Origin: Octopus vulgaris
Taxonomy: Eukaryota
DNA: 64,000 bases
Assembly: GCA_951406725.2 (NCBI GenBank)
Contig: OX597823.1
Location: forward strand, 17,298,001 to 17,362,000
Reading direction: 5' to 3'
The notes beneath the pieces are model-generated. The model did not search any database. It was not told where the DNA came from and saw only the letters and a list, made by a program, of their open reading frames with translations. The translations under genes were made by a program, and so were the position numbers. Positions 24,196 to 24,812 of this stretch are shown in pieces (the stretch's first letter is position 1; each line of letters starts with the position of its first letter).

Positions 24196-24812
24196 GGCGG
24201 CGAGCTGGCAGCATCGTTAGCGCGCCGGGCGAAATGCTTTGCGGTATTTCGTCTGCCGCTACGTTCTGAGTTCAAATTCCGCCAAGGTCGACTTTGCCTT
24301 TCATCCTTTCGGGGTCGATAAATTAAGTACCAGTTACGCACTGGGGTCGATATAATCGACTTAATCCGTTTGTCTGTCCTTGTATGTCCCCTCTGTGTTT
24401 AGCCCCTTGTGGGTAATAAACAAATAGGTATTTCGTCTGCCGTTATGTTCTGAGTTCAAATTCCGGCGAGGTCGACTTTGCCTTTCATCCTTTCGGAGTC
24501 GATAACTTAAGTACCAATTACGCACTGGGGTCGATGTAATCGACTTAATCCCTTTGTCTGTCCTTGTTTGTCCCCTCTATGTTTAGCCCCTTGTGGGTAA
24601 TAAAGAAATAAGAAACGATATCACGTCGGGCGAAATGCTTAGCGGTATTTCGTCTGCCGTTATGTTCTGAGTTCAAATTCCGCCGAGGTCGACTTTGCCT
24701 TTCATTCTTTCAGGGTCGATAAATTAAGTACCCGTTGCGTACTAGGAACGATCTAATCGACTGGACCTCTTCCCCCAAAATTTCGAGCCTTGTGTCTAGA
24801 GTAGAAAAGAAT
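24196..24812 (+). mobile_element. SINE-M trimer (tail A, tail A, tail B)
   Basis: Junctions at 24426|GGTATTTCGTCTG and 24610|AGAAACG. Confidence 0.9.

What the first reader, a model, noticed from the sequence alone, without database searches (positions are those of the whole stretch)
24196..24812. SINE that repeatedly nests into the head of its sister subfamily at two fixed sites
Seen: five multimers (15941-16506, 24196-24812, 29470-29873, 38295-38687, 40728-41149) all have tail-A unit(s) upstream and a tail-B unit last. Junctions are always TAAAGAAATA|G(G/T)TATTTC or TAAAGAAATA|AGAAACG, two positions in the SINE head. Solo tail-A copies often have TSDs starting with similar bases (GGTATGG, GTATATA, GTATG, GGTTG). 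Inference: an endonuclease preference near GGTAT makes the family's own head a hotspot, with seamless 5' joining through homology, converting tail-B copies into tail-A transcription units. Alternative: pre-formed dimers are retroposed as units.
Basis: partly seen in the sequence, partly recalled or inferred. Interest (0 to 1): 0.7.

Follow-up and report, generated by a model that had tools for sequence, protein, structure and literature searches.

The report
Jumping repeat that targets itself
A very abundant short jumping repeat is joined, at more than 30,000 junctions in this genome, to one of two exact spots in the front end of older copies of its own family, forming one-headed chains, likely because new copies are pasted there by an enzyme borrowed from a long retrotransposon.

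Summary
Confirmed and genome-wide. Of 134,670 exact tail-A ends, 30,049 join head position 48 and 2,730 join position 15; tail B almost never does (11 loose hits; 18,195 tail-B ends). Downstream units are more diverged than upstream ones (43 of 56 arrays; all five window multimers). Nested B units interleave with solo B on a tree, and solo A copies sit in genomic (G/T/A)(G/A)TAT sites with 15-bp duplications. This supports repeated nested retroposition, not a dimer master. Tail A resembles the 3' end of an L1/Tx1-type LINE that is itself site-specific.

Corrections: the target is the shared head, so A also nests in A. The single head of a chain mostly comes from the insert, not the host. Long arrays also grow by tandem duplication.

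Two additions: one tail subtype switches to position 15 (odds ratio 119), and a head variant with C at 48 is hit about 66-fold less. The mobilising LINE and the role of RNA pairing are unresolved. This scan reported the same system before on other DNA of this genome. New variant of a known kind (SINEU/Tx1-Mar, Alu-in-Alu hotspot).

The parts
24178..24192 (+). 5' copy of the 15-bp target-site duplication flanking the whole multimer (tail-B type target, begins AATAT), followed by 3 extra bases
   Evidence: read directly
24196..24426 (+). tail-A SINE unit 1, full length (head with A/B-box-like motifs, body, tail A); least diverged unit (2 of 101 differences)
24427..24610 (+). tail-A unit 2, headless, begins at position 48; 5 of 101 differences
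24611..24809 (+). tail-B host unit, begins at position 15; 10 of 101 differences
24810..24824 (+). 3' copy of the target-site duplication
15941..16506 (-). multimer A(5'-truncated) | A48 | B48; differences 2, 6, 8 of 101
29470..29873 (+). multimer A | B48; differences 2, 15 of 101; directly follows the (TAT)n tail of another B copy
38295..38687 (-). multimer A | B48 (B tail partly deleted) inside a 13-bp duplication; differences 4, 6 of 101
40728..41149 (-). multimer A(from position 10, C48 head variant) | B15 inside a duplication; differences 2, 12 of 101
43676..43907 (+). solo tail-A copy in a GTATAT-type target with duplication
44350..44564 (+). solo tail-A copy in a GGTATGG target with duplication
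60882..61112 (-). solo tail-A copy in a GGTTG target
58557..59034 (+). two full-length tail-A units separated by head positions 48-61 plus 4 bases: trace of a classical, non-seamless nested insertion at site 48
1..366 (+). 3' end of an L1/Tx1-type LINE whose ORF2 lies just upstream of the window (L241 6619-9996, 83% identical to the young family); its tail is 84% identical to tail A over 43 bp and it ends in (TATC)n
607..1382 (+). 5'-truncated copy of the same LINE lineage (ORF2 C-terminus and tail), ending in (TATC)n

Best explanation
The multimers are chains of a tRNA-type SINE in which tail-A units are joined to position 48 or 15 of the shared head of older copies, likely by repeated target-primed retroposition using the sequence-specific endonuclease/reverse transcriptase of an L1/Tx1-type LINE whose 3' hairpin the SINE carries. 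Shown: the fixed junctions, the 5'-to-3' age gradient, the target motif in solo copies, about 15-bp duplications, a minority of classical nested insertions with two heads, and a LINE with a related tail and its own NNTAT-containing target. Inferred: the enzyme nicks the bottom strand at (G/T/A)(G/A)TAT(TT), and the SINE head carries an ideal long version of that site. When the target is a SINE head, the end of the new cDNA is homologous to the 47-60 bases upstream and anneals there, so over 90% of insertions leave one head, usually with the insert's sequence. Each insertion rebuilds the site, so chains grow at the 5' end with the oldest unit last. Once direct repeats exist, unequal exchange lengthens some arrays. 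The last bases of the RNA, or different LINE partners, probably tune the choice between the two sites.
For: Counts: 134,670 tail-A ends; 30,049 at site 48; 2,730 at site 15; tail B at site 48: 0 strict, 11 loose, with 18,195 tail-B ends. Age: last unit more diverged than first in 43 of 56, p=3e-7; first against last A unit 44 vs 22 of 70, p=0.007; monotonic in 5 of 5 window multimers. No dimer master: nested and solo B interleave, 31 changes against 37.6 shuffled; pairwise distance among nested B 15.9%. Target: in 48 of 115 tail-A-ended elements with a resolvable duplication, the upstream genomic copy has T at +3 in 39, A at +4 in 39, G/A at +2 in 41; median length 15. Classical nesting with host head 1-60 plus a full new head in 6 of 85 full-head nested copies and 92 strict matches genome-wide. 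Host-private variants at 49-60 recur in the upstream unit in 9 of 41 cases against 3.4% in permutations, as a duplication predicts. Natural mutants: C48 heads 18,448 with 335 junctions, G48 heads 25,022 with 30,049 junctions, a 66-fold ratio, at similar age (5.3% vs 5.9%). The B subtype with mostly CAT at 50-52 is a host in 5 of 21, the other in 28 of 46. LINE: 1130-aa ORF2 with endonuclease, RT and zf-RVT, closest solved structure human L1 ORF2p, ORF1 with a weak zinc knuckle; 27 of 29 young copies are followed by CATATC; tails align. Precedent for precise junctions by cDNA annealing to homologous upstream target: R1/R2, PMC2718515 (passages).
Against: The LINE found targets (TATC)n, not the SINE head, and its tail is only about 84% like tail A; no LINE sitting at site 48 was found in the 24 candidate loci read, so the actual partner is unidentified. 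First-unit heads do not track host age (rho 0.12, n.s.), and 5 of 26 A|B48 chains have a C48 head that the host cannot have supplied, so a simple 'host keeps its head' model fails and replacement must be invoked. Outer duplications were resolved in only 31 of 53 B-ended full-head multimers. Adjacent units are closer than random pairs (median 7.3% vs 9.6%; 12 of 110 vs 0 of 2,500 within 2%), so part of the junction count is later duplication. Site choice depends on tail subtype, which one endonuclease alone does not explain. Preference upstream of the nick is weak (pyrimidine at -1 in 31 of 48). No empty orthologous allele was obtained.
Confidence: 0.8

Rival explanations
1. RNA-guided site choice within the same nested-insertion process: tail A has no terminator, so transcripts run on into their own target sequence (GGTATTT.. 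or AGAAAC..) and pair with the nicked DNA, or the tail's last six bases pair with their complement at head positions 50-55. The RNA rather than the enzyme would then be the main determinant, and it would be self-reinforcing. Compatible with the best explanation except in what sets the site.
For: The GGGCAA tail subtype uses site 15 in 1,824 and site 48 in 498 of 22,395 ends; other subtypes 906 and 29,551 of 112,275; odds ratio 119. The 3' junction is exact without a simple-repeat tail. Tail end and positions 50-55 are reverse complements (seen directly). A few solo copies have a downstream GG where the upstream copy lacks it (position +2: 6 towards G, 3 away, of 11 mismatches). Earlier scan notes e1-9981501 and e1-8667107 propose the same (leads, not support).
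Against: In most solo copies the motif is already in the upstream genomic copy and the duplication starts at offset 0. One subtype (TAG) uses both GGTAT and TATAT starts. The LINE and tail B show the same NNTAT core with other first bases, as expected of related enzymes. Different LINE partners would also explain the subtype effect.
Confidence: 0.3
2. Template jumping: reverse transcription starts on one SINE RNA whose 5' part was cut off at position 48 (loop of a long hairpin) or 15, then jumps to the 3' end of a tail-A RNA; the chain inserts in one event.
For: One head and one outer duplication in most chains; position 48 lies at the apex of a predicted 13-bp hairpin; extra non-templated A's at 5' junctions show an RT that adds bases.
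Against: It does not predict that solo genomic targets carry the same motif as site 48, nor two-headed insertions, nor host-private variants duplicated upstream, nor the age gradient, nor the near absence of B upstream.
Confidence: 0.06
3. Pre-formed A-B dimers retropose as units from one or a few masters.
For: Single outer duplication of tail-B type. Nested B are enriched in one B subtype (53 of 76 vs 10 of 38 rows; label clustering 10 of 500 shuffles). Outer-duplication mismatch cannot separate ages (8.6% nested vs 9.9% solo B).
Against: No near-identical nested B pairs (closest 5%, median 9.8%, like solo B); star-like long branches interleaved with solo B (146 columns, bootstrap not converged); unequal ages; two sites and 1-5 A units in many orders. 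Occasional read-through retroposition of a chain is not excluded.
Confidence: 0.05
4. DNA-level tandem duplication or recombination between the GGTAT at position 48 and a GGTAT-starting duplication behind the tail makes the arrays, without new retroposition.
For: Near-identical neighbours in arrays of 3 or more units, two-unit periodicity in L264 and L271; doubled heads also occur in tandem runs; similar one-head SINE arrays occur in a clam, where the paper offers unequal recombination as a possible origin of tandem arrays (PMC11481361, passages).
Against: Cannot make A|B chains or site-15 junctions; two-unit arrays mostly differ by 5-15%. It explains secondary growth, which is shown, not the origin.
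Confidence: 0.05

Closest known systems
SINEU-3 / Tx1-Mar of crocodilians (Kojima 2015, PMC4494074; passages and section 14 read)
   Same: A SINE with strong preference for a site in another repeat, ascribed to a Tx1-clade LINE; sequential tandem insertions.
   Different: There the target is a Mariner DNA transposon and tandem copies sandwich a duplication. Here the target is the SINE's own tRNA-type head, junctions are mostly seamless with one head, there are two sites tied to tail subtypes, and a head variant is avoided.
Alu-into-Alu single-nucleotide hotspot (Levy et al. 2009, PMC2836564; abstract and section 13 read)
   Same: A SINE inserts in sense at one position of its own family.
   Different: 18,821 exact Alu-in-Alu events in that dataset, after the A-rich linker, with ordinary nested anatomy. 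Here at least 22% of exact tail-A ends are at one head position, without poly(A), and the host head is not doubled.
R1/R2 precise 5' junctions by cDNA annealing to upstream target (Stage and Eickbush 2009, PMC2718515; passages)
   Same: Homology between the cDNA end and upstream target gives junctions without extra bases; otherwise duplication plus non-templated bases.
   Different: There the homology is co-transcribed rDNA; here it is the element's own head.
One-head SINE multimers in the clam S. broughtonii and SINE-derived satellites of squamates (PMC11481361, PMC10702118; passages)
   Same: First unit with full tRNA head, later units truncated at the same head position, one flanking duplication.
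   Different: Those internal units have truncated tails and the passages read discuss unequal recombination; here each unit ends at the exact retroposition end and units differ in age and subfamily.
Octopus OR1/OR2 tRNA-derived CORE-SINEs (Ohshima and Okada 1994; not held; named in PMC4758252 and PMC4824008)
   Same: Recalled, not checked: two octopus SINE families with a shared tRNA-derived 5' part and different 3' parts.
   Different: No reference sequence was available, so identity with tail A and tail B is untested; the citing passages mention no self-targeting.

Membership tests
tRNA-derived SINE | Internal Pol III A- and B-box-like motifs in a tRNA-like head | tested here: inconclusive
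   Box-like motifs near positions 11-22 and 74-86 seen directly (box consensus recalled); ARAGORN 0 genes, Rfam 0 hits; 5' and 3' ends of the head pair in the fold.
tRNA-derived SINE | Short, non-coding, very high copy number, dispersed | tested here: met
   231 bp; 134,670 exact tail ends.
tRNA-derived SINE | Variable-length target-site duplications | tested here: met
   48 of 115 tail-A-ended and 28 of 82 tail-B elements resolved; medians 15 and 17.
tRNA-derived SINE | 3' tail shared with a LINE | tested here: met
   84% over 43 bp with LINE ends in the window; the exact partner family was not found.
tRNA-derived SINE | Pol III transcription | not tested
   No RNA run was laid.
L1/Tx1-type LINE (candidate partner lineage) | ORF1 plus ORF2 with apurinic-type endonuclease, RT and C-terminal zinc motif | tested here: met
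   PF03372, PF00078, PF13966; ORF1 PF00098 below its cut-off; best PDB match human L1 ORF2p, E 2e-53.
Tx1 clade | Target-sequence preference | tested here: met
   27 of 29 copies with a detected tail (30 fetched) are followed by CATATC, mostly (TATC)n.
Tx1 clade | RT phylogeny places it in Tx1 rather than L1 proper | not tested
   No named reference RTs at hand; Atlas hits were unnamed.
Dimeric SINE (Alu-like single master) | Both units of equal age, with shared diagnostic changes across copies | tested here: not met
OR1/OR2 CORE-SINE | Sequence identity to the published families and a CORE domain | not testable with these tools
   No Repbase, Dfam or SINEBase; primary paper not held; name recalled.

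The most novel reading that the evidence does not exclude
A closed evolutionary loop inside one SINE family: tail subtypes steer a borrowed Tx1-type enzyme to different spots in the family's own promoter head through their RNA ends, overwrite the host's head as they land, and a head variant (G43, C48) spread because it still lands in relatives while being about 66-fold less open to being landed in: self-targeting with evolved immunity.
Probability: 0.25. Interest if true: 0.75.

Novelty: new variant of a known kind. Interest (0 to 1): 0.52.

Why it matters
A quarter or more of the copies of a major repeat land in their own relatives, which is a safe-haven strategy and a route from dispersed repeat to 184-bp tandem arrays whose order records time. 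Tens of thousands of natural events with sequence variants on both RNA and target make two open questions testable from genome data alone: how much of non-LTR target choice comes from the endonuclease and how much from RNA-DNA pairing, and how homologous 5' junctions are resolved (insert or host strand kept). It also warns that automatic repeat libraries will split this family into false dimers and mis-date it.

Tried and rejected
Empty-allele test: reads and contigs of 6 coded runs laid on two loci were swamped by other SINE copies and no listed piece spanned a locus; no verdict. Search for a LINE sitting at site 48 (lead from earlier notes): two patterns gave 256 and 739 hits; 4 and 20 loci were read and 23 of 24 were mutated tail-A SINEs, 1 a short tail-A piece behind unrelated sequence; not found, not excluded. 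First guesses of an R4/Dong, RTE or CR1 partner (recalled) were dropped when the tail-sharing LINE proved L1-type. The idea that GGTAT is simply part of the tail was rejected because the motif is in the upstream duplication copy. The idea that the chain's head is the old host's head was mostly rejected. Dating by duplication mismatch was uninformative. Collapse of two-headed insertions after the fact cannot be excluded: tandem runs of doubled heads exist, though the four two-headed cases with figures are no younger than average (4-8 of 95 differences). Rows dropped: arrays within 320 bp of a locus end; 3 of 59 with short last units; pairs under 3% apart and doubled heads; low-complexity or unresolved duplications, 67 of 115 A and 54 of 82 B; B rows with under 85 body bases, and one locus entered in both groups. 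Nine paper searches found no description of a self-targeting octopus SINE; subscription papers, Repbase Reports and the supplements of PMC13282606 (not opened; may hold these families) were not seen.

Full report
Setting. The window is C10:17,298,001-17,362,000 of a 2.8-Gb animal genome, probably an octopus (recalled likeness of the repeat to OR1/OR2; not tested). It holds dozens of pieces of one short repeat family. A full tail-A unit is 231 bp: a head with Pol III box-like motifs, a body to position 166, and a 65-bp tail ending in a small hairpin and ...AAAGAAATA, with no simple repeat. Tail-B units share positions 1-166 and end in a different 45-50 bp tail. ARAGORN and Rfam find nothing.

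Observation. The five multimers are as described. The focal one is A(1-231) | A(48-231) | B(15-end) within one 15-bp duplication. Differences from the A consensus over positions 66-166 rise from 5' to 3' in all five: 2/5/10, 2/15, 4/6, 2/12 and 2/6/8 of 101.

Genome-wide counts (exact patterns, so lower bounds). Tail-A ends 134,670; followed by GGTAT 59,196, against 0.076% per random position; followed by head position 48 onward 30,049; by position 15 onward 2,730. Tail-B ends 18,195; followed by site 48: 0 with a strict pattern, 11 with a loose one, most of which look like mutated A tails. In unselected DNA, 11 of 30 tail-A ends in 60 random 10-kb stretches were joined to a SINE head. Among 132 such junctions outside the site-15-selected loci, 117 were at 48 and 8 at 15.

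Sample used. About 2 Mb was fetched: 70 unselected 10-kb stretches, 80 stretches at the start of C1 chosen around tail or junction matches, and search loci. Array statistics come from 249 parsed tail-A chains and are therefore enriched for junctions; they describe anatomy, not frequency.

Nested insertion against a dimer master. In 56 of 59 site-48 arrays with an intact head and enough sequence, the last unit is more diverged than the first in 43, equal in 4, less in 9 (p=3e-7; diagnostic columns excluded). Among A units alone the last exceeds the first in 44 and is lower in 22 of 70 arrays (p=0.007). Nested B units are 15.9% apart on average, with nearest neighbours at 9.8% (solo B 10.7%) and none under 5%. 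On a tree of 63 nested and 51 solo B they interleave: 31 label changes against 37.6 shuffled, with mild clustering from subtype preference (146 columns, weak support). Classical nested insertions exist: host head 1-60, then a full new head, in 6 of 85 full-head nested copies and 92 strict matches genome-wide. Arrays ending in tail A are common, so the target is the head, not the sister subfamily as such.

Target motif. In 48 of 115 tail-A-ended elements a duplication was resolved (median 15 bp). Its upstream copy, which is untouched genomic DNA, reads G21/T16/A8 at +1, G21/A20 at +2, T39 at +3, A39 at +4, T30 at +5; positions +1 to +3 were not used for anchoring. Tail B prefers A(A/T)TATT (28 of 82 resolved), which fits its absence from GGTAT. 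The pentamer is not enough: 40 of 1,009 GGTAT in random DNA continue as SINE head, but 29 of 50 GGTATTTC do, so a longer motif, or homology, is needed. Natural variants agree. Heads with G43/C48 number 18,448 but have 335 junctions; G48 heads number 25,022 with 30,049 junctions, a 66-fold ratio (patterns differ in length, and duplication inflates both junction counts). The C48 variant is about as old (5.3% vs 5.9% from own consensus) and heads 20 nested and 21 solo copies: it uses the site without offering it. The B subtype with mostly CAT at 50-52 is a host in 5 of 21 cases, the other in 28 of 46.

Two sites, two subtypes. Tails reading GGGCAA use site 15 in 1,824 and site 48 in 498 of 22,395 ends; the other subtypes 906 and 29,551 of 112,275 (odds ratio 119). 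This needs either different LINE partners or a role for the RNA end. Tail A has no T-run terminator, so transcripts must run on (inference), and its last six bases are the reverse complement of head 50-55 (seen directly). Evidence for run-on bases in the product is weak: 6 of 11 mismatches at +2 go towards G downstream, 3 away.

The 5' junction. Over 90% of nested copies have one head. Head divergence in the first unit of 26 A|B48 chains is 8.7%, nearer solo A (7.0%) than solo B (13.4%), and 5 of 26 carry C48, which a GGTAT host cannot supply. Head divergence does not track the last unit (rho 0.12). Yet host-private variants at 49-60 recur upstream in 9 of 41 cases against 3.4% in permutations, while positions 81-120 show 7% against 5% (78 pairs). 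So the host strand is kept in a minority and replaced in most. This fits annealing of the cDNA end to the homologous upstream head, as proposed for R1/R2 junctions (PMC2718515, passages); later collapse of a doubled head is not excluded.

Secondary growth. Adjacent A units are within 2% in 12 of 110 pairs, against 0 of 2,500 between arrays; the near-identical pairs lie in arrays of three or more, and L264 and L271 repeat a two-unit pattern. Tandem duplication therefore lengthens some arrays after nesting has made the first repeat.

Partner. The window starts with, and contains several more, LINE ends whose last 43 bp are 84% identical to tail A. The family is young: 131 scored matches at 99-100% identity, many with a 1130-aa frame. 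ORF2 has endonuclease, RT and zf-RVT domains, ORF1 a weak zinc knuckle; the nearest solved structure is human L1 ORF2p. 27 of 29 copies are followed by CATATC, mostly (TATC)n; related families with the same hairpin end in (ATT)n. All share the NNTAT core. This marks the lineage that likely mobilised tail A, but not the exact family. Earlier scan notes report a Tx1 LINE at the head site itself; my two pattern searches did not recover it (24 loci read). Placement in Tx1 rather than L1 was not tested.

Orthologues. Six runs of five coded organisms were laid on two loci; the family is abundant in five of the runs (X24 gave 16 reads), but no piece spanned a locus. No verdict.

Comparison with print. 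SINEU-3/Tx1-Mar is a SINE aimed at another transposon by a Tx1 LINE (PMC4494074, passages and section 14). Alu has a single self-insertion hotspot (PMC2836564, abstract and section 13). One-head SINE multimers occur in a clam and SINE-derived satellites in squamates (PMC11481361, PMC10702118, passages). An octopus repeat annotation lists recently active L1-Tx1 and SINE families and has no occurrence of 'nested' or 'dimer' in its main text (PMC13282606, passages; supplements not opened). Nine searches found no account of this system; Ohshima and Okada 1994 and Repbase were not available. This scan has noted the system repeatedly on other DNA of this genome; one search for the avoided head variant returned nothing.

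Verdict. Real, abundant and well supported as self-targeted nested retroposition (0.8). Each ingredient has a precedent; the combination, the subtype-linked site switch and the avoided head variant are what is new. New variant of a known kind; interest 0.52.

Noticed in passing
window 1-366, 607-1382, 36700-37190, 63600-63860; L201-L241: Young L1/Tx1-type LINE family with intact 1130-aa ORF2 that sits in (TATC)n microsatellites, often in tandem (e.g. L234).
   Followed up: partly
L014 about 7500-8770, L069 5593-5934, L055 4520-4890: Older LINE families with the same 3' hairpin that end in (ATT)n; candidates for relatives of the tail-B partner.
   Followed up: no
window 29203-29873, 11418-11636: Tail-B copies flanked by (TAT)n/(ATT)n on both sides; the apparent simple-repeat tail may partly be the target.
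   Followed up: partly
window 56204-56521: A 3'-truncated, diverged head (positions 11-106) and a full tail-A unit with an internal deletion lie inside one 15-bp duplication.
   Followed up: no
window 43253-43473 (-); L125, L190, L194: Tail-A copies inserted at other GGTA-like sites in SINE sequence, including GGTACTTAATT on the opposite strand of the body.
   Followed up: no
G000:C14:84691114-84691416, C13:69036080-69036259, C5:87874785-87875360: Doubled heads expanded into 65-69 bp tandem runs.
   Followed up: no
head positions 33-60 (e.g. window 24228-24255): Long inverted repeat with site 48 near its apex; could form a hairpin in RNA or a cruciform in DNA.
   Followed up: partly
G000:C1:15779652-15780175: Six tail-B ends at a 101-bp period: a B-derived tandem array.
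   Followed up: no
L091 about 2150-2400: A long near-perfect inverted repeat element directly upstream of a tail-A fragment, possibly a miniature DNA transposon.
   Followed up: no
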